This document shows positions 22,825 through 64,000 of a stretch of DNA of 64,000 bases, one piece after another. The translations under genes and the position numbers were made by a program. The notes beneath the pieces were generated by a model, which saw only the letters and a list, made by a program, of their open reading frames with translations, made no database searches and was not told the DNA's origin. The DNA is from Dictyostelium discoideum (lineage: Eukaryota), in assembly GCA_000004695.1 (NCBI GenBank), contig CM000155.2, positions 288,001-352,000 of the forward strand, written 5' to 3'. Every line of letters begins with the position of its first letter. The first letter of the stretch is position 1.

Positions 22825-22905
22825 TGATAAAGGCGAGATTCGAACTCGCGAAGCCGAAGCATAAGAACTTGAGTCTTACCCATTTGACCACTCTGGTACT
22901 TTACC
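22825..22905 (-). tRNA. tRNA-Leu (anticodon CAA), type II with long variable arm
   Basis: Manual fold of the minus strand. Acceptor GGTAAAG/CTTTATC (one G-U pair), 3-bp D stem CCA/TGG, D loop GAGTGGTCAAA. Anticodon stem TAAGA/TCTTA with loop CTCAAGT, variable arm TGC-TTCG-GCTTC, T arm GCGAG-TTCGAAT-CTCGC, discriminator A. 81 nt. Confidence 0.85.
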
Positions 22906-25024: not shown

Positions 25025-25704
25025 TTTAATTGTACATTTAATAAAAATTATATTACATTTTTTTTTATCCCAAACCTTTCCAAAAAAAAAAAAAATTAAA
25101 AAAAAAAAAAAAAAAATAAAAAAAATTTTTTAAAAAAAAAAAAAGAAAAAAATTCATTGAATAAACATTAAAACACTAAAAATATCCCAAAAACATTGAT
25201 TTGTGGTTATCACCATTGAATCTTAAAAACCCTAAAAAAAAAAATATCAATTTTAAATAAATTTATTTAAAAAAAAAAAAAAAAAAAAAAAAAATAATTA
25301 ACATGTTTATGAATTTAAAATAATTAATTTATTGAGGGTTTTTTTATATTTTATTTTATTTTATTTTTTATTTTATTTAACAACTTTCCTAAAAAGGTTT
25401 GAGACTTTTTTTTATATATTAAATATATATTCAACTGATATCATTTAAGAACAATTTGGCCCAAATTTTGTTTGTAAAAAATATTAATTAATTTCCATAT
25501 TTAAATACTATTATTGTAATATTAATTAAAAAGGATATTATTTTTTTTAATTTTTGATTAAAAAACATTAATTTTAAACAAAAAAAAAAAATTCCAATCT
25601 TAATTTAATTTTTTTATTTTCTTTATATTATTCTGTAAAAAAACAATTTTAAAATTAATGATTTTTTATATAATTGATTTATTATTTATATGTAAAAGAT
25701 ATAT

Positions 25705-35422: not shown

Positions 35423-35494
35423 TCCTCATTGGTGTAGTCGGTAACACTCTAGTCTTTCACACTGGTACCTCGGGTTCGATTCCCGAATGGGGAG
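35423..35494 (+). tRNA. tRNA-Glu (anticodon TTC)
   Basis: Fold: acceptor TCCTCAT/ATGGGGA, D arm GTGT-AGTCGGTA-ACAC, anticodon stem CTAGT/ACTGG with loop CTTTCAC, variable TACC, T arm TCGGG-TTCGATT-CCCGA, discriminator G. 72 nt. Confidence 0.9.
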
Positions 35495-35524
35495 CTTTTT
35501 AAAAAATATATTTGGTAGATCACT

Positions 35525-45291: not shown

Positions 45292-48043
45292 TTATTTGTT
45301 TGATGAGAGCAGCACCAACAGAATCAACACAACCAATTGTAATACCTGAAATTGCCCACCTGATAGTTTGGATGATTCACTATTTCCTTCAGCACCGATT
45401 GATGGTGATGGAGATATTGATATTTGAATTTCTTCAATTTTAACATCATAATTATATGATGTTGAGCCTAATTGGAGATATAATACTCCTGATGTTTCAT
45501 TAACAAATGAATTTGAATGGCATGATAAACAATCAGTACTATTTGTAATATCGATTTCATTTGAACTTAATATTGGATTACTATCATAAAATGTTTCATT
45601 TGGTGATAAACTACATTGTAAATTACATAAAAGAGAAACATTTTGTGATGAAAGTGCCAAGCTTGCATGAATATTACCTGATAAACCAACACCACCCACT
45701 GTTATTGAAATACCTTCTTTTTTATTTTTAATGGTTGGAACAACTGTAATCTTTGGTTTAAAATATGTTAAGAATGCATTTGGTCCTAAATTATCTCCAA
45801 TGAATGTTGAAACAAGTAGTGGACTCTCTATACTATCAGTTCTGACTATTAACATCTTTTCATCATGAGTAATAATCGTGGTATTTTTATTATTTGCTAA
45901 TACTTTAACTTTGAATTCATCTTCATTTGTTAATAAATTCTTACCAGAAACTGTGATTGTACCTCCACAACCAATTGTTTTATTATCTATATTTATTATA
46001 CCATTAATAACAGGTGGAAATGTTAAACTAAATAATGATTCCATATTAATTCCATCTACAGTAATATCAATTGGACCATAATCATATGAATTCAATGTTT
46101 TAATTGTTAATTGATTATCTTTTAATGCTAAAATTTCTGATGAAATATCATTACCATCGAAATAGACTTGAATTAATGGTATTGAGTTACCGAAATTATT
46201 TCCATGAAATGTAATATTAAATTGATCTTTAGAAAATTTACGATGCTCGATTATTGGAGGAGCATATGAGTATCCATCACTAACTGTCTCTGAGTTTAAT
46301 TTGAATATGAATTGTTTATTTAAACCAGTACCATATGGTGTTGAACATTTTGTTTTATAGTAACCAGATGTTAATGATTGTGATGATGGTATTGAACATT
46401 GGGTGGCTGATGATGAATTACCAATAGTAATACTTGGTGTTGATGATGAAATTAATGGACAATCCATATAATATATTTCAATATTTAATGTTCCATTAGA
46501 TACATTTGGTCTATTAATTACATTAATAATTAATGATGCAGAAATTGAAATTGTATTTGAGGAAATATTAGAACGAGTAAAACTAATATTAAAAGATCTA
46601 CATCTTAAATGAGGTAATTTAAATGTTAAACTCTTTTCATCAGATGTAACATTTAATTGGTCAATTTTTAAATAACTATTAGTTCCATCAGCATACAATT
46701 GAACGAATGATTCTTTATTTTTACCAAAATTTGTACCAATTAATGTAACGAAACCATTTGAATATGATCCACTTGATAATGTTGGAATATTATATGTAAA
46801 TGATACATTATTATTACTTGTTGAATTGCAACCTCCGAAATTAACGTTAACTGGTAAATCTCTACCACCATATTCATTTGGATCTAATTGACATTCTAAT
46901 TCGTTTGTTGTTGATTTAATTAATGTACATTGTTTATTTCCAATTGTAATTGAGGGTTTCAATGATGGATATAAAGTCGAAGATAATTTAACACCTTTAA
47001 TTGTTACAATACCTCCTAAATAATTTGATACTGATGATATTGATGTTATTATTGCTGGAAAACAATGAGTAAAATCCTTTTGAAGAGTAATTTTATTTAC
47101 CTTAATATTAATAGACATTGGACCAAGATCAGGTCTACTAAAGTTATTCACTTGAATTTGTGTATGATTTACTGAAATTATAAAATTTGTTTGATTAATA
47201 CCTCCCAGAAAAACCTCTACCAACTTTTTATCTGTAAAGAAGTTATCACCATTAATTGTTAATATCCCTAATGATTCGTCTGAAACAGTACTTGATATTT
47301 TAGGTGATTTGTATGAAAATGGAATAGGAAAATCACCTTCATCTTCAAAGTTAATTTCAAAATTTCCAGAACCTGGTGGAAATGATACAGTGATATTATT
47401 ACAGTCAAAAGAAGGATCAGAGAAATTACCTTTAACAACAAAAGAAACACCATTTCCATAGTTACTTTTAATAAAATTAGGACCTCCCCTGAATCTTAAA
47501 TAATTACCAGTAAATACTACATCACCTCCAGACGTTGCCGGTTTTTTATTAAACTTGATATCACTTACAAATTGAAATGTATATCCAGTACCAGAAAATT
47601 TATCTATATCTGTAAGATTAAATGAACAATTTTCAACTGGATTTGATAGTTCTTTTGCACATACCTTACTATGAGCACTACCCCATAATCTTGAGAATGG
47701 TTCATCTGAATGGAATGTACAAAGTCTCATACTACCAACAACGACACTACAATTGAAATAATTTGGTGCCATTTCATATCTGGGTGTTGTTTCGTTTTGA
47801 TACATAATTAAACGGGTAGGGTAAGAACGATCGCTTGGATAATTAAAATAATGTATTGTAAATGATTTTTCACTAATTGTTGCAACTAATTAAAATAAAT
47901 TAATTTCATAAACAAATTAATTATCAATAATTAAAAATATAATGATACTTACTATATGCCATTGGATCTTCCATTGAATATGGATATCCTAATTTAAAAA
48001 TTGAGAATAAAAAAAAAACTAGTAATATTATTTTATTTTCCAT
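45292..48043 (-). CDS. IPT/TIG-domain single-pass/GPI cell-surface glycoprotein (Tgr-like family candidate); main exon 45292..47886, candidate signal-peptide exon 47953..48043
   Basis: Main ORF of 837 aa. Clear IPT/TIG signatures: [25 protein letters not shown]...[11 protein letters not shown]...ELECQLDP, and [28 protein letters not shown]. The C-terminal TM is [21 protein letters not shown]. Upstream exon [30 protein letters not shown] + A has donor GTAAGT, and the only acceptor is TTAATTAG at 47888-47887. However the junction is phase 1 into phase 0, and a TAG stop lies at 47889-47887. So the 5' structure is inconsistent as read (frameshift/pseudogene or my error). Confidence 0.6.
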
Positions 48044-50399
48044 TTTTATTTTTATTTGGGTTTATTAATAATTAATAAAAATTGAAAAAGTGAAATTTTA
48101 TTATTACTGGAGAAAATAATTCTTAATAAATAAATAGAAAAAAAAAAAAAGTAAAAAAAAAAAAAAAAAAAACGAAATAATAATAATAATAATAATATAA
48201 AAAAACCGAAAATAATTTCTATTTTTAGAAGTTCTCTACCGAATGATATTGATTGGTATCATTTCATACATCAACCAAAAAAGATTTATAAATCTATTAA
48301 ATTCATAAAAAAAAAAAAAAAAAAAAACATTGGAAAATTTATTTAATAAAATTCAAAATAGTAATTTAAAAATAAATAATTATTTTACATTAACCAAAAA
48401 TTTCTTTTATTCATTTCTAATTGTCTTTGGTTCAGTAATTCCTTTTCTTTCAGATAATTGTTCTTATTTAATTTGGTTTTTTTTTTTTTTTTTTTTTTTT
48501 TGATGTATGTAAAGGAATGGGTTATATTAATTTTTAAAAAACAAAATAAAAATAAATAAATGCAAACTATTTTTTAAAAAAAAAACACAATTTATTTATT
48601 TTCTATTGTGGTTTAAATTCCTTTTTTTAATATAAAAATAATTGATGGTGATGGAGATATTGATATTTGAAATTCTTCAATTATAACCATAATTATATGA
48701 TGTTGATGACCAACATCATATAATTTTCGAAATTTTCAACCAAGAAGTCTCGAACGAAAACTCTGAAATATATAAAACTAAATAAATTAATTATTATTTT
48801 AATTATTATTGTTTAATTATTTATCATTATTATTATTATTACTATTATTAATATTATGATTATAAAAAAATTATAAATATTAAACAATGTAAATCATTAC
48901 AGATCAAAAAAATTGCAATCGGATAGAAATTCTATCTAATAGATCAATAAAAAAAAAAATCTTAATCGAAGAGATCCACGGCATTTTCTTTTTTTTTTTT
49001 TTTGAAAATGTTTTTTTATTTTATTTATTTTATTTTTTTTATTTTATTTTTTTTATTTTATTATTTTTTTTATTTTCTATTTTTTTTTTTTTTTTTTTTT
49101 TTTTCAAACAATAATTTAAATATATCAAAAAATTTTTTTTTTTTTTTTTTTTCACATTTTTATTAATAAAAACTATTTTAGAAAATAATTACGTTAATAG
49201 AATAATATAAACCTCTAGAATGATCGAAAAAAAAAAAAAAAAATTTCAGAAAAAAAAAAACAAAAAAAAAGAAAAAAAAAATTAATTAGACCTAATTAAT
49301 TCATTTTAACCAAAAACAAGCGCTGTTTTTTTTTAACACACAACTTTTTTAATACCCTTACCCTACCTACATTAATTTCATGTGAATATCAATATTCTAA
49401 TTATATTCATTTATGTTTTTTTTTTTTTTGATCTTTCCACCCATTCCTTTCTGTTTTTCATCATATAAAAACAATTCAATATTTGAATTAATGTGTGTGT
49501 GTGGGTTTACCATTATTCACACTTAGAAGATTAAAATGAGATATACATTTTCAATATTTACAATCAATACAAAGGTAATTTTTTTTTTTTTTGTTAAATT
49601 AATATTAATTTTTTTTTTTTTTTTCTTTTTTATTGTAATTTAACTACAATACCATATAAGAGTATAATTTGTTGGGGGTGTGCAAAAAAGTGGGGGCATA
49701 GAAATACTTTTTACCCATACTCCACATTAATTTATATTGATTAGGGTATTAAAATTTGAAAAAAAAAATTGAACTCACCATTTTTTCCTTTTTAATCATT
49801 GTATTATTAGTTTTTTAAAGTATAGTGTGTATTTTGTTTGCAAAAAATGAATAAAAACATGAAAATTATAATTTGTAAACCCTTTTTATTGTTCATTTCA
49901 TCAAACATCTTTTTTTTATAGAATAATACAATAATCACATCATTCACTCGATATACCAATAATATAAAAAATTAAAAAATATAATAATTAAAAAAAAAAA
50001 TAATAATAATAATAATAATATTTTTTTTAATAATTTTTAAATAAATAAAAAAAAATATTAATAAAAAAATTAAAAAAATAATTAATAAACAAAAAAAAAA
50101 ATTACTTAAAGCCAAAAAAAAAAAAAACATAAATAAATTCTATTCATTAAAAAAAAAAAAATAATTGTAAATATAATAATAGTTTTAAATAAATTTGTTT
50201 ATTCAAATATTCTAGTTATTTTTTTTTCCATTCTTTTTTGTAAATAACTATTTTTTTATATTAATAATTAAATAAAACTTTTTTTTTTTAAACTAATTCT
50301 ATTTTTGATTTAAATAAAAATAAACAAAACAAAACAAAATAAAATAAAATATAAAATAAATAATTAAATAATTAAATTATCAAATAATTAAATTTCTTT

Positions 50400-50606
50400 T
50401 AAAAATATAATAAAATAATATAATATAATATAATATAATATAATATAATATAATATAATATAATAGTTGATAATATAATATAATATATATAATAAATATA
50501 TATAAATAAATAATTAAATAGATAAATTTCTTTTAAAATAAAAATAAAAATAAAATACAATATAATAAAAAAATAAATAATATAAATATATAAATTAATA
50601 AATTAA

Positions 50607-50653
<47 letters not shown>

Positions 50654-50738
50654 AAAAATAAATTAATAAATTAATAAATTAATAAATTAATAAATTAATA
50701 AATTAATAAATTAATAAATTAATAAATTAATAAATATA

Positions 50739-50770
<32 letters not shown>
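50400..50770. repeat. Compound AT-rich microsatellites: (ATAAT)n, (AAAT)n, (AATTAATAAATT)n
   Basis: Directly visible tandem units in the kinase gene 5' flank. Confidence 0.85.
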
Positions 50771-50774
<4 letters not shown>

Positions 50775-50917
50775 ATATTTGTTTTAATTAATAATAATTT
50801 TTTTATATAAATACTTCAAAAAAATAAAATAAAATAAAAGGTAAGAAGAACAAATTTTTTCATTTTAAAACAACAATTAACAAAATATTAATTATTATTT
50901 TTTTTATTACAGTTCGA

Positions 50918-53906
<2,989 letters not shown>

Positions 53907-54350
53907 TTTAAAAATCTTTTTTAAAGTAAAATAAATTTAATTTTTGTAAATCATCTTATCAACTGTCCAAATAGTTGATCATTCTAAAAAATAAATAAAT
54001 AAATCATATAAATAAATTAAAAATTTATACAAATATAAAATAAATAAACTAAAAATCAAATAAATAAAAATAGTTTTATTAATAAAAAATTAATACTCTT
54101 GTAATAATTACACTTAATAATTAATTTTTTTTTTTTTTTTCAATATTGTTAATTATTGTTTTTAAATCTTTTTTTTTTTTAAAAAAAAATAAAAGAATAA
54201 ATATTTAAATTGGTGCTATAAACTGTTTGGACAATTGTGTTTTTGAATTTGTTAAATCTTTTCTTTTTTTTTTTCTCTTTAATAGTCTAAAAAATATTAA
54301 AGAAAAATAATAATAATAATAATTCTGTTTTCTATTTTTTTTTTTTTTAA

Positions 54351-54383
<33 letters not shown>

Positions 54384-54745
54384 CTTTAATTATTATATAA
54401 ATAAATAAGATGTTGGTTTCTTTTTTTAAAATCAGTTGGTTACATTCAATGAATTATTTTCATTATTGAATTATTATTATTATTTTTATTATTATTTACC
54501 GCCAATACATTTAAAACTATTGGTTGTTTGATATTTATTTTTACTAATGAATAAGTTTTCTATCCTCGTGTAATTTGGTGTTCAAATTGATAATGTTCCA
54601 AAAAAACCAATAATCTAAAATGAATCCATAAAAAGAAATATAAATTTTATTTTATTTATAATTATATTCTCAACGATTTAAATCATTTAATTATTTTATT
54701 ACTTTCGTTTAGGCGCTTTTTTTCCCTGCAGTCAGGAAAAAATAA

Positions 54746-55712
54746 TTTAAAATTTCCCTACAACAGAAATTACAATTTTAAATGGAGACCAACTAACCCG
54801 TACTGAAATTTATTATGAATTACCAATAAAATCAAGTTGTTCAATTGTTTCGAACCAAATGATTAAATGTCTTGGTAATTTTATAAATTATTTAGATTTA
54901 TTTAAAAATGGTAAAATTAAAATACAATTTTCAATATGATTATAATTGATAATATCATAAACCAGTGGAGTTGAAAACAAGAGATTGGTTTACAAATTTA
55001 ATCGATGGAGTTATATCAATTTTAAAATCTGGAGAAGTTACATCACAAACAATTAGATATATATAACTTGAACTGGCTTCATTGAGAATGAAAATGGATC
55101 ACTCATAAAAATAATTGGATTGTGATGAATTATTAATTAATGGTGAAAATTTTAATGAAAATACAATTTACAATACATCTGTATATTGCTTTTCAAAAAA
55201 ACAAGTTTATAATTGTTCATTTATAAACTATACATCTATCTCATGTGATATTGAATTGGTAGGTCCATTCGATCAACTTTGTAAAATCAAATTTAATGGG
55301 TAAAGATGAGAATTATAATATTTCAATATCATATTATCCTCCATTAGTTTTAAATTCAACAAAGATTTCGAATTCATCGATTAGTGGAATTATTACAATT
55401 TTTGGTAATGAATTTTATAATCAAATTGATTTAATTACAGTTGGTAAAAGTAAATGTTTAAACTCTACATTTATAAATTCAACATCGATTTCATGTTTTG
55501 TAGAACCTTCAAATTTTATTATTAATCAAACTGAACAACAACAACAACAATATGTTAACATTACAATTAATAGCAAAAGTGGTGGTAATAATTTAATAAT
55601 TTATTCTGGTAATTCAAATAGAATTGATGAAAATAATAAATCAAATAAAAATACAATTGATGATAAACAAACCAACAATGAAATCAAAAATGAATCCATA
55701 AAAGAAATATAA
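54746..55712 (+). pseudogene. Truncated, rearranged 3' fragment of a tandem-family IPT/TIG gene (copy 0): no 5' part, internal ~165-bp inversion, frameshifts
   Basis: It aligns by eye to 58635..59624 of the intact copy. The segment ~54955..55120 is the reverse complement of the equivalent of 58820..58985, which is why minus-strand [18 protein letters not shown]-type ORFs appear antisense in the intact copies. Reading frames are broken (ORFs 55115..55303 and 55296..55712 are in different frames). Confidence 0.7.
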
Positions 55713-56608
55713 ATTTAATTTTATTTATAATTATATTCTCAACGATTTTAATCATTTAATTAAATTTATTACTTTCGTTATAAAAAAAATTAAACTCACA
55801 CCAAAAACAATGATTTAGTATATATAAAAATGATTATTTTTAGTGGTTTTGTGTCAAATAAAAAAAAATAATAATACAATAATAAATTTTGAACATGTTG
55901 TTTTTTTTTTTTAATTTTTTTTTTTTTAATTATTTTTATAATAATTATTTTTTTGTTTTTACTATTTGATAAGTGTGTTATTGTGAATTTTGATAATTAA
56001 AATAATATATAAAAATCAAAAATAATTAAAAATATTACCACTTCTCATAAACTACTTTTTATGGTAGTGGTTGAAAAAAAAAAAAAATAATAATAATTTT
56101 AATTTCAATTAAAAAAAACAAGCCCAAAAAAGTTTAATACAATAAATAGTATTCTAATATGATGAAAGAAACATCAAGTGGTGGGTGGTAAACTTGGCAC
56201 ACAGTGTTAAAAAAAAACAATATGAGTAATATTGAAAATCATACAACAAAACTGATAATATTAAAAGAAATTAGTGGGATGTGTGTGTTGAAAAACATTT
56301 TTCAATAAATTATGTGATTGTTTATTTTTAATTTAATATTGAAGCATTACCTTATTGTTTTTATTATTATTTTTATTATTATTATTTTTTTTTTTTTTTT
56401 TTTTTATTATCAATATTTTTGTTTTTTTTAATTATTATTAATATTTATGTTTTTTTTTAATTATTAATATTTTTGTTTTTAAAAAATTTTTATAATTATT
56501 ATTTTTATTTTTAAATAATTTTTTTTCCAACCCAAACCCGTAATATTAAATTTTTTTCCCTTTTCAAAAAAACAATTTCATTATTAAAATAATAAATAGT
56601 AAATCAAA

Positions 56609-56768
56609 ATGAAATTTTTTATATTATTTTTTATTTTATATTTAGTTTCTGATACATTAGGACATTTAAATGAACCAGTTGTCAAGAGTAAATATTTAAT
56701 ATAAAAATAATTTAATCTTTTTTTTTATATTGTTTTTTCCGGTTTGGGTTTTTTTTTTTTTCCAAATT

Positions 56769-56833
<65 letters not shown>

Positions 56834-56955
56834 TTTGGTTATTGTTATTTACTATTTTTAATTTTTTTTAATGTGTTAATATTTAACTAGTTAAAAAAAT
56901 ACAAATATTCAATTTTGTAACCACTTGTCAATATAATTAAAGAAATTTGCAATTG

Positions 56956-57018
<63 letters not shown>

Positions 57019-59624
57019 AGTTTAAAATTAATATCTATAAATATTAATATTAATAAATATTAATCATTTAATAGATACATTCTCTATATTTTTGTATTTT
57101 TTTAAAAAGAAATCGATGGTTTCCAACACTAATTTTTTCTAATGATTTTATTTTAATTTCAGATTTTACATACACAAAACAATCATTGGAATATACATAT
57201 GATATTGATAGTACATATTATATAAAATGGATTTTTTCAAATTTGGAATATGAATTGGTTTTTGAATGTAAAAATAATAGCAAAGAAAGAACATGTACTG
57301 CTGGTATGTCCATTGATATTGCTAAAAATTTACATGGTCAAATAAAGGTATGCATACGTGGAATTGATAATAATGGTGTATTAGATTGCCATATTGCTTT
57401 TTATGAAGAATATTTTCCAAAGCCAATTATTGAAGGTGACTTTAAACCATCTACCAAAGGTGGTCCTACTATTATGAAAGGTTATTATTTGGCAATTGGT
57501 GCATACTACTATACCATTATCCCTGATACTAGATTGGGTATAATAGGTGATATTTTTAGTAACTCTATTGATGTCACAAATTTAATACTAGACTATAAAG
57601 GTGGTTGTGGCCCAGGAACTATTCAATGGTCAAATGATTTTAAATATAGTTTCAATCATTCAAATCCAATCATTGAAAATATTTTTATTGAAGGTTCATC
57701 TTTTATATCAAAAGGTTCTAATTTTTGTAATTCTTCTGATTCAATTCAAATTTATTTAGATGGTGTTCAAATTGATAAATCAAAAATAAAATCAATTGAT
57801 CATGAGCAATTTGAAATAATTTACACTCAACTATATTCAAAATCAATCAATGTTAAAATAGTATCTGGTGGACTTGAATCGAATATTTACAAATTGGATT
57901 TTAAACCGATACCTTTAAAAATTAATAGTGTTCCAAGATTAAAAGGTGGTTCAGTTACAATAATTGGTGAAAGACTATCTCCACAAGTATATAATTCAAC
58001 AATCATTGTTAAAATTGGTCAATATGATTGTAAAAATGTAATCTCATCAAAAAATGAAATTCTCTGTAATTTAGAATCGGTTCAAAATGTTGAAAAGGTT
58101 AAATTGGTAGATTTACAAGTTAATATCTCAATAAATGGTATTTTTAATGAAAATAATTTATTATTCTCATTCGATGTACCAATAATGTCAGATTTTATAC
58201 TTCCTCAAGGTGAAGTTAAATTAGTTGGTGATTGTTTTGGTTCTTCACAATTGACTCAAGTTAAAATTGACGATGTGTTACAATCCAATATAACAATTAA
58301 TATTAATGAAAAAGAAACAACACTTTCATTTAAGCCAATTAAACCAATTAAAAAATCAAAGTTATATATAATTGTCAATGGTACAAAATCAAATACTATT
58401 GAAATTGATTCATCATTTTTTGTAAAAAGTGTTCCATCTTCACCTTCAGTAAATGGTCAAATTGTAAACTTTACACTTTTCAATATAAATCCAAATAATG
58501 TAAATGCAACACCAATTATGATTTTTCAAAATAATAGTTCAATAAATGCAATTGATTATAAAAATTCAAATGAATACTCAACTCACACATACTCCTTTGA
58601 TATTCCAAAAAGTTGTGGGAGAAATGAGATTACAATTTTAATTGGAGACCAACTAACCCGTACTGAAATTTATTATGAATTACCAATAATATCAAGTTGT
58701 TCAATTGTTCCAAATCAAATGATTAAATGTCTTGGTAATTTTTTAAATTATCTAGATTTATTTAAAAATGGTAAAATTAAAATACAATTTTCAAATATGG
58801 TAATAATTGATAATATTCCAAACAATTCAATTATTTTTATGAGTGATTCATTTTCATTCCCAATGAAGCCAGAGTATAGTTCAAGTGATATATATCTTAT
58901 TGTTTGTGATGAAACTTCTCCATATTTTAAAGTTGATATAACTCCATCGCTTAAATTTGTGAGCCAATCTCTTGTTTTCAACTCCACTGGTGGTGAATTA
59001 TTAATTAATGGTGAAAATTTTAATGAAAATACAATTTACAATACATCTGTATATTGCTTTTCAAATAAACAAGTTTATAATTGTTCATTTATAAACAATA
59101 CATCTATCTCATGTGATATTGAATTGGTAGGTCCATTCGATCAACTTTGTAAAATCAAATTTAATGGTAAAGATGAGAATTATAACATTTCAATATCATA
59201 TTATCCTCCATTAGTTTTAAATTCAACAACGATTTCGAATTCATCGATTGGTGGAATTATTATAATTTTTGGTAATGAATTTTATAATCAAATTGATTCA
59301 ATTACAGTTGGTAAAAGTAAATGTTTAAACTCTACATTTATAAATTCAACATCGATTTCATGTTTTGTAGAACCTTCAAATTTTATTATTAATCAAACTG
59401 AACAACAACAACAATATGTTAACATTACAATTAATAACAAAAGTGGTGGTAATAATTTAATAATTTATTCTGTTAATTCAAATAGAATTGATGAAAATAA
59501 TAAATCAAATAAAAATACAATTGATGATAAACAAACCAACAATGAAATCAAAAATGAATCCATAAAAAGAAATATAAATTTAATTTTATTTATAATTATA
59601 TTCTCAACGATTTTAATCATTTAA
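56609..59624 (+). CDS. IPT/TIG-domain cell-surface glycoprotein, intact copy (copy 1) of a tandemly repeated Tgr-like family gene; two exons, 56609..56687 and 57163..59624
   Basis: Signal-peptide exon [26 protein letters not shown] + A ends at donor GTAAAT. A 475-bp AT intron with a long poly-T follows; acceptor AATTTCAG at 57161-57162 (phase 1). The tool's Met at 57186 is TTG. IPT motifs are present, e.g. [25 protein letters not shown]...[10 protein letters not shown]...EILCNLES. The C-terminus is the hydrophobic [15 protein letters not shown]. Confidence 0.7.
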
Positions 59625-59868
59625 TTAAATTTATTACTTTCGTTATAAAAAAAAATTATACTCCCACCAAAAACAATGATTGAGTATATATAAAAAATGA
59701 TTATTTTTAGTGGTTTTGTGTTAAATAAAAAAAAAAAAATACAATAATAAATTTTGAACATGTTGTTTTTTTTTTTTTATATTTTTTTTTTTTTCTAATT
59801 ATTTTTAAAATAATTTTATTTTTTTTTTTTATTGGTTTTACTGTTTGGGTTATTTTTAATCTCAAATT

Positions 59869-59922
<54 letters not shown>

Positions 59923-60467
59923 TTTGATTATTGTTGTTATTTACTATTTTTAATTTTTTAATATTAAAGTCTCCAAATATTCAGCTATTGTTTATTTTTT
60001 ATATCATTGTTAATGTCATTAATAACTATAACTAGTTATTAATATAAATAAATATCAATCATTTTGTAGATATATTATCTATTTATGTATTTTATAAAAG
60101 ATATTGATAATTTCCAACACCAATTTTTAATTTTTTTATTTGGTTCATTAATATTTTTTTAAAAATTTTTCAATGTTTTAACCAGTTGTCAATGTAATTA
60201 AAGATATTTGCAATTGTTTATTAAAAAAAAAAAAAAAAATTGTTTGTTATTTTTTTAAAAAAAAAAAAAAAAGAGCTACTGTTCATTTTTTAATAAATTA
60301 ATTTTAAATTAATATCTATAACTATTAATATTAATAAATATTAATCATTTATTAGATACATTATCTCTATTTTTTGTATTTTTTTTAAAAAGAAATCAAT
60401 AGTTTCAACACTAATTTTTTCTTATGATTTTATTTTAATTTTAGATTTTACATGCACAAAACAATCA

Positions 60468-63400
60468 TTGGAATATACATATGATATTGATAGTACATAT
60501 TATATAAAATGGATTTTTTCAAATTTGAAATATGAATTGGTTTTTGAATGTAAAAATAATAGCAAAGAAAGAACATGTACTGCTGGTATGTCCATAGATA
60601 TTGCTAAAAATTTACATGGTCAAATAAAGATGTGCGGAACTGATAATAATGGTGTATTAGATTGCCATATGCGTGTATACGAAGAATATTTTCCAAAGCC
60701 AATTATTGAAGGTGACTTTAAACCATCTACCAAAGGTGGTCCTACTATTATGAAAGGTTATTATTTGGCAGTTGGAGTAATTCCTTACTTTACTATTATC
60801 CCTGGTACTATATTGGGAACAATAGGTGATATTTTTAGTAACTCTATAGATGTCACAAATTTAATACTAGACTATAAAGGTGTTGTGGCCCAAGAACTAT
60901 TCAATGGCCAAATGATTTTAAATATAGTTTCAATCATTCAAATCCAATCATTGAAAATATTTTTATTGAAGGTTCATCTTTTATATCAAAAGGTTCTAAT
61001 TTTTGTAATTCTTCTGATTCAATTCAAATTTATTTAGATGGTGTTCAAATTGATAAATCAAAAATAAAATCAATTGATCATGAGCAATTTGAAATAATTT
61101 ACACTCAACTATATTCAAAATCAATCAATGTTAAAATAGTATCTGGTGGACTTGAATCGAATATTTACAAATTGGATTTTAAACCTATACCTTTAAAAAT
61201 TAATAGTGTTCCAAGATTTAAAGGTGGTTCAATTACAATAATTGGTGAAAGACTATCTTCACAAGTAAATAATTCAACAATCATTGTTAAAATTGGTCAA
61301 TATCATTGTAAAAATGTAATCTCATCAAAAAATGAAATTCTCTGTAATTTAGAATCGGTTCCAAATGTTGAAAAGGTTAAATTGGTAGATTTGCAAGTTA
61401 ATATCTCAATAATGGTATTTTTAATGAAAATAATTTATTATTCTCATTCGATGTACCAATAATATCAGATTTTATACTTCCTCAAGGTGAAGTTAAATTA
61501 GTTGGTGATTGTTTTGGTTCTTCACAATTGACTCAAGTTAAAATTGACGATGTGTTACAATCCAATATAACAATTAATATTAATGAAAAAGAAACAACAC
61601 TTTCATTTAAGCCAATTAAACCAATTAAAAAGTCAAAGTTATATATAATTGTCAATGGTACAAAATCAAATACTATTGAAATTGATTCATCATTTTTTGT
61701 AAAAAGTGTTCCATCTTCACCTTCAGTAAATGGTCAAATAGTAAACTTTACACTTTTCAATATAAATCCAAATAATGTAAATGCAACACCAATTATGATT
61801 TTTCAAGATAATAGTTCAATAAAAGCAATTGATTATAAAAATTCGAATGAATACTCGACTCACACATACTCTTTTGATATTCCAAAAAGTTGTGGGAGAA
61901 ATGAAATTACAATTTTAATTGGAGACCAACTAACCCGTACTGAAATTTATTATGAATTACCAATAATATCAAGTTGTTCAATTGTTTCAAATCAAATGAT
62001 TAAATGTCTTGGTAATTTTACAAATTATTTAGATTTATTTAAAAATGGTAAAATTAAAATACAATTTTCAAATATGATAATAATTGATAATATTCCAAAC
62101 AATCCAATTATTTTTATGAGTGATTCATTTTCATTCCCAATAAAGCCAGAGTATAGTTCAAGTGATATATATCTTATTGTTTGTGATGAAACTTCTCTAG
62201 ATTTTAAAGTTGATATAACTCCATCGCTTAAATTTGTGAGCCAATCTCTTGTTTTCAACTCCACTGGTGGTGAATTATTAATTAATGGTGAAAATTTTAA
62301 TGAAAATACAATTTACAATACATCTGTATATTGCTTTTCAAATAAACAAGTTTATAATTGTTCATTTATAAACAGTACATCTATCTCATGTGATATTGAA
62401 TTGGTAGGTCCATTCGATCAACTTTGTAAAATCAAATTTAATGGAAAAGATGAGAAGTATAACATTTCAATATCATATTATCCTCCATTAGTTTTAAATT
62501 CAACAACGATTTCGAATTCATCAATTGGTGGAATTATTACAATTTTAATTGGAGACCAACTAACCCGTACTGAAATTTATTATGAATTACCAATAATATC
62601 AAGTTGTTCAATTGTTTCAAATCAAATGATTAAATGTCTTGGTAATTTTACAAATTATTTAGATTTATTTAAAAATGGTAAAATTAAAATACAATTTTCA
62701 AATATGGTAATAATTGATAATATTCCAAACAATCCAATTATTTTTATGAGTGATTCATTTTCATTCCCAATGAAACCAGAGTATAGTTCAAGTGATATAT
62801 ATCTTATTGTTTGTGATGAAACTTCTCCATATTTTAAAGTTGATATAACTCCATCGCTTAAATTTGTGAGCCAATCTCTTGTTTTCAACTCCACTGGTGG
62901 TGAATTATTAATTAATGGTGAAAATTTTAATGAAAATACAATTTACAATACATCTGTATATTGCTTTTCAAATAAACAAGTTTATAATTGTTCATTTATA
63001 AACAATACATCTATCTCATGTGATATTGAATTGGTAGGTCCATTCGATCAACTTTGTAAAATCAAATTTAATGGTAAAGATGAGAAGTATAACATTTCAA
63101 TATCATATTATCCTCCATTAGTTTTAAATTCAACAACGATTTCAAATTCATCAATTGGTGGAATTATTACAATTTTTGGTAATGAATTTTATAATCAAAT
63201 TGATTCAATTACAGTTGGTAAAAGTAAATGTTTAAACTCTACATTTATAAATTCAACATCGATTTCATGTTTTGTAGAACCTTCAAATTTTATTATTAAT
63301 CAAACTGAACAACAACAACAATATGTTAACATTAAAATTAATAGCAAAAGTGGTGGTAATAATTTAATAATTTATTCTGGTAATTCAAATAGAATTGATG

Positions 63401-63531
63401 AAAATAATAAATCAAATAAAAATACAATTGATGATAAACAAACCAACAATGAAATCAAAAATGAATCCATAAAAAGAAATATAAATTTAATTTTATTTAT
63501 AATTATATTCTCAACGATTTTAATCATTTAA
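60468..63531 (+). pseudogene. Degenerate tandem copy (copy 2) of the 56609..59624 gene: signal exon region deleted, frameshifts, and an internal in-frame 630-bp tandem duplication
   Basis: It has the same N-terminal [17 protein letters not shown]... as copy 1, but the frame breaks after ~190 codons (three successive ORFs 60468.., 61172.., 61528..). The block starting GGAGACCAACTAACCCGTACTG occurs at 61921 and again at 62551. The ~0.8 kb upstream that carries the signal exon in copy 1 is missing. Confidence 0.7.
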
Positions 63532-64000
63532 TTTAATTTATTATTTTCGTTATAAAAAAAAAATTAAACTCCTACCAAAAAAAATTATTGAGTATATATA
63601 AAAAATGATTATTTTTAGTGGTTTTGTGTTAAATAAAAAAAAAAAATAATACAATAATAAATTTTGAACATGTTGTTTTTTTTTTTTATAATTTTTTTTT
63701 TTTTTAATTATTTTTAAAATAATTATTTTTTTGTTTTTACTATTTGATAAGTGTGTTATTGTGAATTTGATAATTAAAATAATATATAAAATCAAAAATA
63801 ATTAAAAATATAACCACTTCTCATAAACTACTTTTTATGGTAGTGGGTGAAAAAAAAAAAAATAATAATTTTCATTTCAATTAAAAAAACAAGCCCAAAA
63901 AAGTTTAATACAATTAATAATATTCTAATATGATGAAAGAAACATCAAGTGGTGGGTGTGGTAAACTTGGCACACAGTGTTAAAAAAAAACAATATGAGT

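What the first reader, a model, noticed from the sequence alone, without database searches (positions are those of the whole stretch)
54600..64000. 3.3-3.9 kb tandem repeat units: one intact gene flanked by decaying copies
Gene 3' ends recur at 55712, 59624 and 63531 (spacings of ~3.9 kb). Intergenic segments are also repeated (e.g. 56041..56200 vs 63821..64000; 55713..55900 vs 59625..59760 vs 63532..63700). Copy 1 retains signal exon and ORF. Copy 2 has lost ~0.8 kb including the signal exon and accumulated frameshifts. Copy 0 is only a 3' fragment. This is a snapshot of tandem duplication followed by pseudogenisation, and the array continues past the window end.
Basis: seen in the sequence. 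Interest (0 to 1): 0.6.

Follow-up and report, generated by a model that had tools for sequence, protein, structure and literature searches.

The report
Tandem Dictyostelium tgr gene array
This is a real head-to-tail array of cell-surface "tiger" (Tgr) adhesion/recognition genes on Dictyostelium discoideum chromosome 6, holding one intact gene, one dead copy and edge fragments; it is an already-annotated, textbook case of gene birth and death by unequal recombination rather than something new.

Summary
Window 54585-64000 is the left end of a same-strand tandem array of Tgr genes (IPT/TIG and TgrO1-like Ig domains).

- **Copy 1** (exon 1 56609-56687, 475-nt intron, exon 2 57163-59624) encodes 846 aa, identical to annotated AX4 protein XP_635221.
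- **Copy 2** (60445-63531) lacks 742 bp that include the promoter and signal exon. It has two uncompensated 1-bp deletions (60881, 61410).
- **Copy 0** (54766-55759) is a 3' fragment with a ~170-bp in-place inversion and three frameshifts. A 125-bp remnant of a further copy lies at 54585-54709.

An independent assembly, probably long-read AX2-214, reproduces all of this with zero coding differences, so the array is not an assembly artefact. In that assembly the array runs to eight units. It includes a near-perfect 11.4-kb three-gene higher-order repeat made by one unequal crossover inside copy 1 (window 58286-58475).

The family, its clusters, its pseudogenes and its birth-and-death dynamics are published. 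Interest is low to moderate.

The parts
54585..54709 (+). Decayed 125-bp remnant of the 3' end of a further short-type Tgr copy ('copy -1'). It marks the left edge of the array.
   Evidence: Local alignment to 59519-59644 of copy 1, with frame-breaking indels; BLAST 54612-54709 matches 59546-59644 at 94.9%.
54766..54955 (+). Copy 0, piece A, equivalent to copy 1 58626-58816 (aa about 515-570). It has a 1-nt deletion at 54933.
   Evidence: 94.7% identity. Its left boundary lies within about 5 bp of the left boundary of the 630-bp duplication in copy 2 (motif GAAATTACAATTTTAATTGG).
54956..55121 (-). Copy 0, segment inverted in place, equivalent to copy 1 58822-59007 on the opposite strand. It is bounded by short imperfect inverted repeats (AATTGATAATAT / GAATTATTAATTAAT).
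   Evidence: BLAST minus-strand match at 87.8%; tblastn on the minus strand for aa 580-636; junction sequences.
55122..55759 (+). Copy 0, 3' coding part, equivalent to copy 1 58990-59624. It has +1 nt at 55298, +3 nt at 55534 and -1 nt at 55700, giving a premature stop at 55712 and loss of the hydrophobic tail.
   Evidence: 98.4% identity; indels listed; ORFs 55115-55303 and 55296-55712.
55760..56608 (+). Full-length intergenic spacer and presumed promoter of copy 1. Its first 468 bp (55760-56227) recur after copy 2 (63532-64000).
   Evidence: 55122-56227 matches 62897-64000 at 95.9%. The part 55962-56608 is missing upstream of copy 2.
56609..56687 (+). Copy 1 exon 1, encoding the signal peptide [26 protein letters not shown], with a GTAAAT donor.
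   Evidence: The spliced product is 100% identical to XP_635221 / EAL61795.
56688..57162 (+). Copy 1 intron (475 nt) containing T65 and A55 homopolymers; the acceptor is TTTCAG.
   Evidence: Homopolymer lengths differ between the two assemblies.
57163..59624 (+). Copy 1 exon 2, an intact ORF including the stop codon. It encodes two TgrO1-like Ig and two IPT/TIG Pfam matches and a short hydrophobic C-terminal tail. Together with exon 1 it gives 846 aa.
   Evidence: Pfam PF24612 E = 4e-33 and PF01833 E = 1e-10.
58286..58475 (+). Interval inside copy 1 where the unequal crossover occurred that created chimeric copy 4 and the 11.4-kb higher-order repeat seen in the independent assembly.
   Evidence: Informative sites: copy 4 equals copy 7 at 43/43 sites 5' of the interval and equals copy 1 at 13/13 sites 3' of it.
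59625..60444 (+). Shortened spacer between copy 1 and copy 2. It lacks the equivalent of 55962-56703 (742 bp: promoter, signal exon, splice donor). The deletion junction is near 59831/59832, and what remains is intron-derived sequence.
   Evidence: No signal-exon match upstream of copy 2 or copy 5, and no convincing alternative start exon.
60445..63531 (+). Copy 2, the pseudogene body. It has 1-nt deletions at 60881 (GGTGGTTG to GGTGTTG) and 61410 (AATAAATGG to AATAATGG), which split it into three ORF pieces.
   Evidence: Identical lesions occur in the independent assembly at composite 14190 and 14719, and in copy 5 at 25605 and 26134.
61906..63165 (+). In-frame 630-bp tandem duplication inside copy 2 (61906-62535 and 62536-63165; 210 codons, aa about 515-724, roughly two Ig-like modules). 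The junction lies in the 11-bp microhomology ATTACAATTTT.
   Evidence: 98.75% identity over 641 nt; junction sequences; aa positions.
63532..64000 (+). 3' flank of copy 2 and the start of the full-length spacer leading to copy 3 (844 aa, P0002 = XP_635224), which lies beyond the window.

Best explanation
The region is the left end of a same-strand tandem cluster of Tgr ('tiger') cell-surface genes of Dictyostelium discoideum, most likely the cluster the literature calls tgrA. These proteins have a signal peptide, IPT/TIG and TgrO1-like Ig repeats and a membrane anchor.

The cluster evolves by non-allelic homologous recombination between its 95-98% identical units of about 3.9 kb. Unequal crossovers add and remove units and create chimeric genes. 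Conversion-like exchanges keep the units similar to each other. Individual units are knocked out by small lesions. The window shows:
- one functional unit (copy 1);
- one unit killed by a 742-bp deletion of promoter and signal exon plus two 1-bp deletions, and remodelled by a microhomology-mediated 630-bp in-frame domain duplication (copy 2);
- at the array's edge, a truncated, partly inverted, frameshifted fragment (copy 0) and a 125-bp remnant.

**Shown:** the anatomy, the lesions, their reproducibility in a second assembly, one clean crossover chimera, mosaicism, and the monophyly of each array.

**Inferred:** the recombination mechanisms, the lack of expression of copy 2, and the cell-adhesion/recognition role, which rests on family membership only.
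For: - **Repeat anatomy:**
- **Family and identity:** Pfam Ig_TgrO1 and TIG; the spliced copy 1 is 100% identical to AX4 XP_635221 on a 3,602,379-bp contig.
- **Copy 2 lesions:**; they are shared by copy 5, so the death of this unit predates the higher-order duplication.
- **Independent assembly:** collinear over window 46600-64000. In 54585-64000 there is no substitution in any coding part; there the differences are homopolymer lengths and two error-like patches.
- **Array extent:** eight units.
- **Higher-order repeat:** 14.2 kb repeated at an offset of 11,427 bp with 99.3% identity. Copies 2 and 5 are identical over the aligned exon-2 coding sequence, as are copies 3 and 6.
- **Chimera:** copy 4 is a clean copy-7/copy-1 chimera, 43:0 sites then 0:13.
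- **Older mosaics:** seen in copy 7 and copy 2.
- **Array monophyly:** 96-98% identity within an array against 85-90% between arrays of three isolates.
- **Constraint:** dN/dS is 0.26-0.56 among copies, indicating moderate constraint.
Against: - No expression data could be consulted, so 'pseudogene' for copy 2 rests on sequence lesions only. An automated annotation of the other assembly calls a 963-aa protein there.
- dN/dS does not separate copy 2 from intact copies (0.28-0.45).
- The subfamily name tgrA could not be checked against a database; the sources name the protein only 'immunoglobulin E-set domain-containing protein'.
- Identifying the second assembly as AX2-214, and as a de novo long-read assembly, is an inference from the paper and from protein identity.
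- Whether the window's own source carries five or eight units beyond position 64000 is unknown.
Confidence: 0.9

Rival explanations
1. The array, or the differences between its copies, is an assembly artefact: collapsed, expanded or mis-joined repeats, with frameshifts that are sequencing errors.
For: The window does contain error-like patches and homopolymer length discrepancies next to the copy 1 signal exon. The unit count beyond the window may differ between assemblies.
Against: An independent assembly reproduces every junction in 54585-64000: the deletion, the 630-bp duplication, the inversion and both frameshifts. No coding part of that interval differs by a substitution. The copies differ by 2-4%, enough for unambiguous assembly.
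Confidence: 0.02
2. Copy 2 is not dead. It is expressed from an alternative start, or serves as a selected variant with two extra Ig-like modules, as the 963-aa automated gene model suggests.
For: The 630-bp duplication is exactly in frame, and the last 667 codons form one ORF. The gene is called in the other assembly. dN/dS is not elevated. The literature notes that some AX4 tgr 'pseudogenes' are open in other strains.
Against: Promoter, signal exon and splice donor are deleted. Two uncompensated frameshifts lie in the first 1 kb. No ATG-started hydrophobic exon with a usable donor lies upstream. The curated AX4 protein set has no protein for it.
Confidence: 0.05
3. The units were multiplied by a mobile element (transposon capture or rolling-circle type) rather than by unequal homologous recombination.
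For: Published work says tgrA-type genes duplicate at transposon-like rates and appear at new genomic sites. A DDE_Tnp_4 ORF lies beside the array of another isolate. P0007 is a dispersed copy of 'junction plus last unit'.
Against: Within the window a unit contains only the tgr gene and its spacer: no transposase or RT ORF and no terminal repeats. The units are strictly head to tail. The one datable event is a clean homologous crossover inside the coding sequence.
Confidence: 0.03

Closest known systems
Dictyostelium Tgr (tiger) family, tgrA-type same-strand cluster (Benabentos et al. 2009 cited in PMC12745789; Holland et al. 2025, PMC12745789; Polo Prieto et al. 2025, bioRxiv 10.1101/2025.10.22.684067)
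   Same: The domain content matches (signal peptide, TIG/E-set repeats, TgrO1-like Ig). Copy 1 is identical to an annotated AX4 protein. The genes are unpaired and on one strand, interspersed with pseudogenes. Turnover between isolates is rapid.
   Different: Nothing essential differs. Details I did not find described in the two papers I read are the 630-bp microhomology duplication, the inversion in copy 0, the 11.4-kb higher-order repeat with its chimeric gene, and the short-tail versus long-tail C-termini.
tgrB1/tgrC1 allorecognition locus (chromosome 3)
   Same: It belongs to the same protein family and shows local duplication, recombination and pseudogenes.
   Different: tgrB/C genes are head-to-head pairs sharing a promoter, with a demonstrated kin-recognition function. 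The genes here are unpaired, only about 26-49% identical to other subfamilies, and have no known function.
Classical birth-and-death or concerted-evolution arrays of recognition genes (e.g. vertebrate MHC/KIR, plant NLR clusters), from general knowledge
   Same: They share tandem paralogues, NAHR-generated chimeras, copy-number variation, interspersed pseudogenes, and arrays that are monophyletic within a lineage.
   Different: The organism and protein fold differ, and no ligand or selective agent is known here.

Membership tests
Tgr (Transmembrane, IPT/TIG, E-set Repeat) family | IPT/TIG (E-set, Ig-like) repeats in the ectodomain | tested here: met
   Pfam PF01833 TIG, E = 9.5e-11 (42 bits against a cutoff of 20.9), 2 stretches; PF24612 Ig_TgrO1, E = 4.2e-33, 2 stretches.
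Tgr (Transmembrane, IPT/TIG, E-set Repeat) family | N-terminal signal sequence | tested here: met
   Exon 1 encodes [18 protein letters not shown]..., a hydrophobic h-region followed by small residues. This was judged by inspection and by identity to the curated protein; no signal-peptide predictor is available.
Tgr (Transmembrane, IPT/TIG, E-set Repeat) family | C-terminal transmembrane anchor | tested here: inconclusive
   Copies 1-7 end in a hydrophobic tail of only 14-17 residues ([17 protein letters not shown]) with no cytoplasmic part. This could be a GPI-attachment signal or a short anchor. Only copy 8 (P0004) and P0007 have a classical internal TM helix plus a tail of about 250 aa.
Tgr (Transmembrane, IPT/TIG, E-set Repeat) family | Sequence identity to an annotated D. 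discoideum family member | tested here: met
   100% over 846 aa to XP_635221 / EAL61795 / Q54EL9.
tgrA cluster specifically | Unpaired genes, all transcribed from the same strand (unlike the head-to-head pairs of other tgr clusters) | tested here: met
   All units are on the + strand with no divergent partner. The description is quoted from bioRxiv 10.1101/2025.10.22.684067.
tgrA cluster specifically | Gene symbol tgrA assigned by dictyBase | not testable with these tools
   The sources give only 'immunoglobulin E-set domain-containing protein'. The original family paper (PMC2694408) is not held.
Birth-and-death multigene family | Tandem duplicates together with inactivated copies | tested here: met
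   Intact: c1, c3, c6, c8. Disabled: c2 and c5 (deletion plus frameshifts) and c4 and c7 (TAA at codon 17 of the signal exon). There are also two edge fragments.
Birth-and-death multigene family | Copy number and content vary between strains | tested here: met
   Arrays of 4 and 3 genes occur in other neighbourhoods in two other isolates. No homologue more than 84% identical (protein) was found outside the AX-type genomes.
Concerted evolution by NAHR or gene conversion | Paralogues within an array are more alike than arrays are between strains; mosaic or chimeric members exist | tested here: met
   96-98% within arrays against 85-90% between them, and each array is monophyletic. Copy 4 is a clean chimera; c7 and c2 are mosaics.
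Processed (retroposed) pseudogene | Intron loss, poly-A tail, dispersed location | tested here: not met
   Copy 2 retains intron-derived sequence upstream of exon 2 and sits in tandem register.
Transposable element | Terminal repeats and/or a transposase or RT ORF within the unit | tested here: not met
   The only ORFs of 60 aa or more in a unit are Tgr pieces and low-complexity antisense ORFs. No terminal repeat structure was found.

The most novel reading that the evidence does not exclude
The 11.4-kb three-gene higher-order repeat (copies 4-6) is seen in the second assembly with zero differences between copies 2 and 5 and between copies 3 and 6 over their aligned exon-2 coding sequence, and with a perfectly clean chimeric copy 4. 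The curated AX4 protein set may lack it. If AX4 does lack it, either the array underwent an unequal crossover during the few decades of laboratory propagation that separate the AX2 and AX4 lineages, or the AX4 reference has silently collapsed 11.4 kb of chromosome 6. The first case would make this array a place where tgr gene birth and chimera formation can be watched on laboratory timescales.
Probability: 0.35. Interest if true: 0.45.

Novelty: already known. Interest (0 to 1): 0.25.

Why it matters
Tgr proteins are the cell-surface family that includes the Dictyostelium kin-recognition pair TgrB1/TgrC1. How such families generate and keep diversity is an active question, linked to Crozier's paradox and to parallels with the MHC.

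This array gives a compact, fully resolved example of the steps involved:
- unit duplication;
- promoter and signal-exon deletion;
- microhomology-mediated domain duplication;
- inversion;
- mosaic exchange;
- one datable unequal crossover that creates a chimeric gene.

The locus is annotated in the reference genome, and the family's birth-and-death dynamics and the tgrA cluster are already published. The finding therefore confirms and illustrates existing knowledge rather than extending it. On the practical side, it flags a possible copy-number discrepancy or collapse in the AX4 reference beyond position 64000, and local base-call errors next to the copy 1 signal exon.

Tried and rejected
1. 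**Is the short C-terminus of copies 1-7 read from former upstream DNA at a duplication junction?** I compared the unit with the dispersed long-type paralogue P0007 (L005). That locus itself carries a remnant of a short-type 3' end, including 78 bp of coding sequence, upstream of its promoter. It is therefore a copy of 'junction plus last unit' and cannot show the ancestral state. The nucleotide alignment of short and long types fades gradually after '...NLIIY' with no sharp breakpoint. The question is left open.
2. **tRNA and Rfam scans of the window**. Nothing was found in 54-64 kb. A C/D-box-like motif at 56158-56256 has no Rfam support and was dropped.
3. **Alternative start exon for copy 2**. 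Only a 25-codon ORF at 60085 was found, without a canonical donor. Rejected.
4. **dN/dS as a test of pseudogene status**. It does not discriminate, with 0.28-0.45 for copy 2 against 0.26-0.56 among the other copies. This is probably because most differences predate inactivation or were moved by conversion.
5. **Confirming the gene symbol.** Searches for tgrA1, tgrO1, Q54EL9 and DDB_G0291 and the original family paper (not held) gave no direct confirmation.
6. **The AX4 chromosome beyond the window.** The look-up of encoding contigs returned only the other assembly, so the unit count in the window's own source could not be determined.


Full report
**Source and context.** The window is about 20% GC, with long poly-A/T and CAA runs. 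The spliced product of the central gene is 100% identical over 846 aa to D. discoideum AX4 protein XP_635221 / EAL61795 / Q54EL9, which lies on a contig of 3,602,379 bp. From my own knowledge that is the size of AX4 chromosome 6. The window contains no N.

**Checking the observation.** A self-BLAST of 54000-64000 against the window and the repeat finder show long, high-complexity direct repeats:
- 57011-59269 matches 60292-62546 (96.5% over 2266 nt);
- 58629-59831 matches 62536-63739 (97.7%);
- 55122-55961 matches 58990-59831 (96.3%);
- 55122-56227 matches 62897-64000 (95.9%).

These are far beyond chance; the only chance-level matches are poly-A/T tracts. The recurrence of gene 3' ends and intergenic segments is therefore real. 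One correction is needed. The stop at 55712 is not homologous to those at 59624 and 63531. It is created by a 1-nt deletion at 55700, and the homologous stop would be at 55757-55759.

**Copy 1.**
- Exon 1 is 56609-56687 ([26 protein letters not shown], donor GTAAAT).
- The intron is 475 nt (56688-57162) and carries T65 and A55 runs.
- Exon 2 is 57163-59624.
- Pfam finds two stretches each of Ig_TgrO1 (E = 4e-33) and IPT/TIG (E = 1e-10).
- It is a Tgr ('tiger') family protein.

**Copy 2.**
- Its body (60445-63531) is 97.7-97.8% identical to copy 1 exon 2 once the internal duplication is removed.
- Upstream, the equivalent of 55962-56703 (742 bp) is missing. That stretch holds the presumed promoter, the signal exon and the splice donor.
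- Two uncompensated 1-nt deletions, at 60881 (GGTGGTTG to GGTGTTG) and 61410 (AATAAATGG to AATAATGG), split the reading frame into the three ORFs.
- The junction of this duplication lies in the 11-bp microhomology ATTACAATTTT, which encodes the 'ITI' motif at the start of two different modules.
- This duplication explains why the 5' parts of copies 1 and 2 are about 3.28 kb apart while their 3' ends are 3.907 kb apart.
- No credible alternative first exon exists upstream.

**Copy 0 and the array edge.**
- Copy 0 starts at 54766, equivalent to 58626 of copy 1. That is within about 5 bp of the left breakpoint of the 630-bp duplication.
- It carries a 1-nt deletion at 54933.
- It has an in-place inversion of 54956-55121, bounded by short imperfect inverted repeats.
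- It has a +1 frameshift at 55298, a CAA insertion at 55534, and the -1 deletion at 55700 that removes the hydrophobic tail.
- To its left, 54585-54709 is a decayed 125-bp remnant of yet another 3' end.
- Nothing further left is related. The next gene upstream is an ankyrin/protein-kinase gene.

**Is it an assembly artefact?** The look-up of encoding contigs returned the same locus from a different assembly, GCA_054883475.1, contig JBTAPE010000005.1.
- It is collinear with window 46600-64000.
- A base-level alignment shows no substitution in any coding part of copies 0, 1 or 2. Within 54585-64000 the differences are homopolymer lengths and two error-like patches beside the copy 1 signal exon.
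- Both frameshifts, the deletion, the inversion and the 630-bp duplication are all present.
- The locus-tag series and species set match the long-read genomes of Holland et al. 2025 (PMC12745789), which include the lab strain AX2-214. Because its proteins are identical to AX4's, I infer that this assembly is AX2-214.
- The artefact hypothesis is refuted for the window.

**Beyond the window.** I stitched four overlapping loci into a 50.5-kb composite. It shows eight full-length units followed by unrelated genes.

| Unit | Product | State |
|---|---|---|
| c1 | 846 aa | intact |
| c2 | - | pseudogene |
| c3 | 844 aa (P0002 = XP_635224) | intact |
| c4 | - | nonsense in signal exon |
| c5 | - | pseudogene, identical to c2 |
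| c6 | 844 aa | intact, identical to c3 |
| c7 | - | nonsense in signal exon |
| c8 | 1087 aa (P0004 = XP_635226) | intact |

- A 14.2-kb stretch repeats at an offset of 11,427 bp with 99.3% identity.
- c2 and c5 are identical over the aligned exon-2 coding sequence, as are c3 and c6.
- c4 equals c7 at all 43 informative sites 5' of a 189-bp interval and equals c1 at all 13 sites 3' of it.
- So a single, very recent unequal crossover between a c7-type gene and c1 (window 58286-58475) converted a five-unit array (c1, c2, c3, c7, c8) into eight units.
- c4 and c7 have a TTA to TAA nonsense codon at codon 17 of the signal exon plus a 9-bp deletion. They are probably disabled too. The automated annotation rescues them with an invented first exon (P0003 begins MMKETPIGG...).
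- The curated AX4 protein set contains only c1, c3 and c8. That is what a five-unit array with two pseudogenes would give, but I could not read AX4 beyond 64000.

**How the array evolves.**
- Older exchanges are visible. c7 is c3-like over its first 1.7 kb and c1-like over its last 0.6 kb. c2 is a patchwork of c8-like and c1-like tracts.
- In two other isolates, same-strand arrays of 3-4 short-type genes sit in different neighbourhoods.
- Identity is 96-98% within an array and 85-90% between arrays, and each array is monophyletic.
- dN/dS among copies is 0.26-0.56.
- Together these results indicate repeated non-allelic homologous recombination or gene conversion, which drives expansion, contraction and homogenisation, with occasional inactivation. 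That is birth-and-death with concerted evolution.

**Comparison with what is known.**
[quoted passage not shown] They find that the tgrA/H/I/O subfamilies duplicate almost as fast as transposons and land at new sites.
[quoted passage not shown] That is exactly this arrangement, so I infer this is the tgrA cluster. The symbol itself could not be verified.
- The feature is therefore already known in kind, and as a locus it is already annotated.

**Verdict.** Novelty is 'already known'. Interest is 0.25. The most novel reading not excluded is that the 11.4-kb duplication arose in laboratory time, or is collapsed in the AX4 reference.

Noticed in passing
window 56481-56563 and 56738-56769: There are two patches of clustered differences from the independent assembly (23 substitutions plus 3 single-base indels), in which a base is replaced by a copy of its neighbour (CAAATCATAAACAG to CCAACCCAAACCCG; ATTATTTAACATTCTC to TTTTTTTCCCTTTTC). 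The other assembly agrees with paralogous copies 3 and 8. These are probably low-quality base calls in the window's source, next to the T65 and A55 runs.
   Followed up: partly
window 56772-56836, 56962-57016, 59872-59925: There are very long homopolymers (T65, A55, T54) inside the copy 1 intron and the copy 2 spacer. Their lengths differ by 14-33 nt between the two assemblies.
   Followed up: partly
window 59480-59624 (copy 1 C-terminus); composite copy 8 and L005 (P0007): Copies 1-7 end about 50 aa after '...GGNNLIIY' in a short hydrophobic tail ([14 protein letters not shown]), which may be a GPI signal. Only the last unit (P0004, 1087 aa) and the dispersed paralogue P0007 (1038 aa) have an internal TM helix and a cytoplasmic tail of about 250 aa with PPNQxE repeats. 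The origin of the short tail is unresolved. The short type is the common form in other isolates.
   Followed up: partly
window 54766-54769 and 61903-61906 (both equivalent to 58626-58629 of copy 1): Two independent rearrangement breakpoints fall within about 5 bp of the same motif, GAAATTACAATTTTAATTGG: the left end of copy 0 and the left end of the 630-bp duplication. This may be a breakage or microhomology hot spot at the 'ITI' start of an Ig-like module.
   Followed up: partly
L005 5113-5509 (upstream of P0007, same contig about 100 kb away): The P0007 locus carries a remnant of a short-type 3' end, with 78 bp of coding sequence plus 3' flank, ahead of its promoter. It arose as a dispersed copy of the array's terminal junction plus the last unit.
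   Followed up: partly
window 46249-47544, minus strand (gene model extends to about 48040): A distantly related Tgr-like gene (26% identity to copy 1; an 894-aa model with Ig_TgrO1 and TIG in L001 1-1444) lies on the opposite strand about 7 kb upstream of the array.
   Followed up: no
window 50918-53906, plus strand: The upstream neighbour is an ankyrin-repeat protein kinase gene with a perfect (CAA)36 polyglutamine tract at 51289-51398 and an apparent short intron near 53030-53080.
   Followed up: no
window 56158-56256 (and 63930-64000): An intergenic element begins ATGATGAAAGAAAC... and has a CTGA about 95 nt downstream, a C/D-box-like arrangement. It has no Rfam match. In copies 4 and 7 the same stretch is open and was used as a first coding exon by the automated annotation.
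   Followed up: partly
window 22825-22905 (-) and 35423-35495 (+): Two tRNA genes, Leu-CAA and Glu-TTC, lie elsewhere in the window.
   Followed up: no
L006 17860-18234 (-): A DDE_Tnp_4 transposase-like ORF lies immediately downstream of the four-gene Tgr array of another D. discoideum isolate.
   Followed up: no
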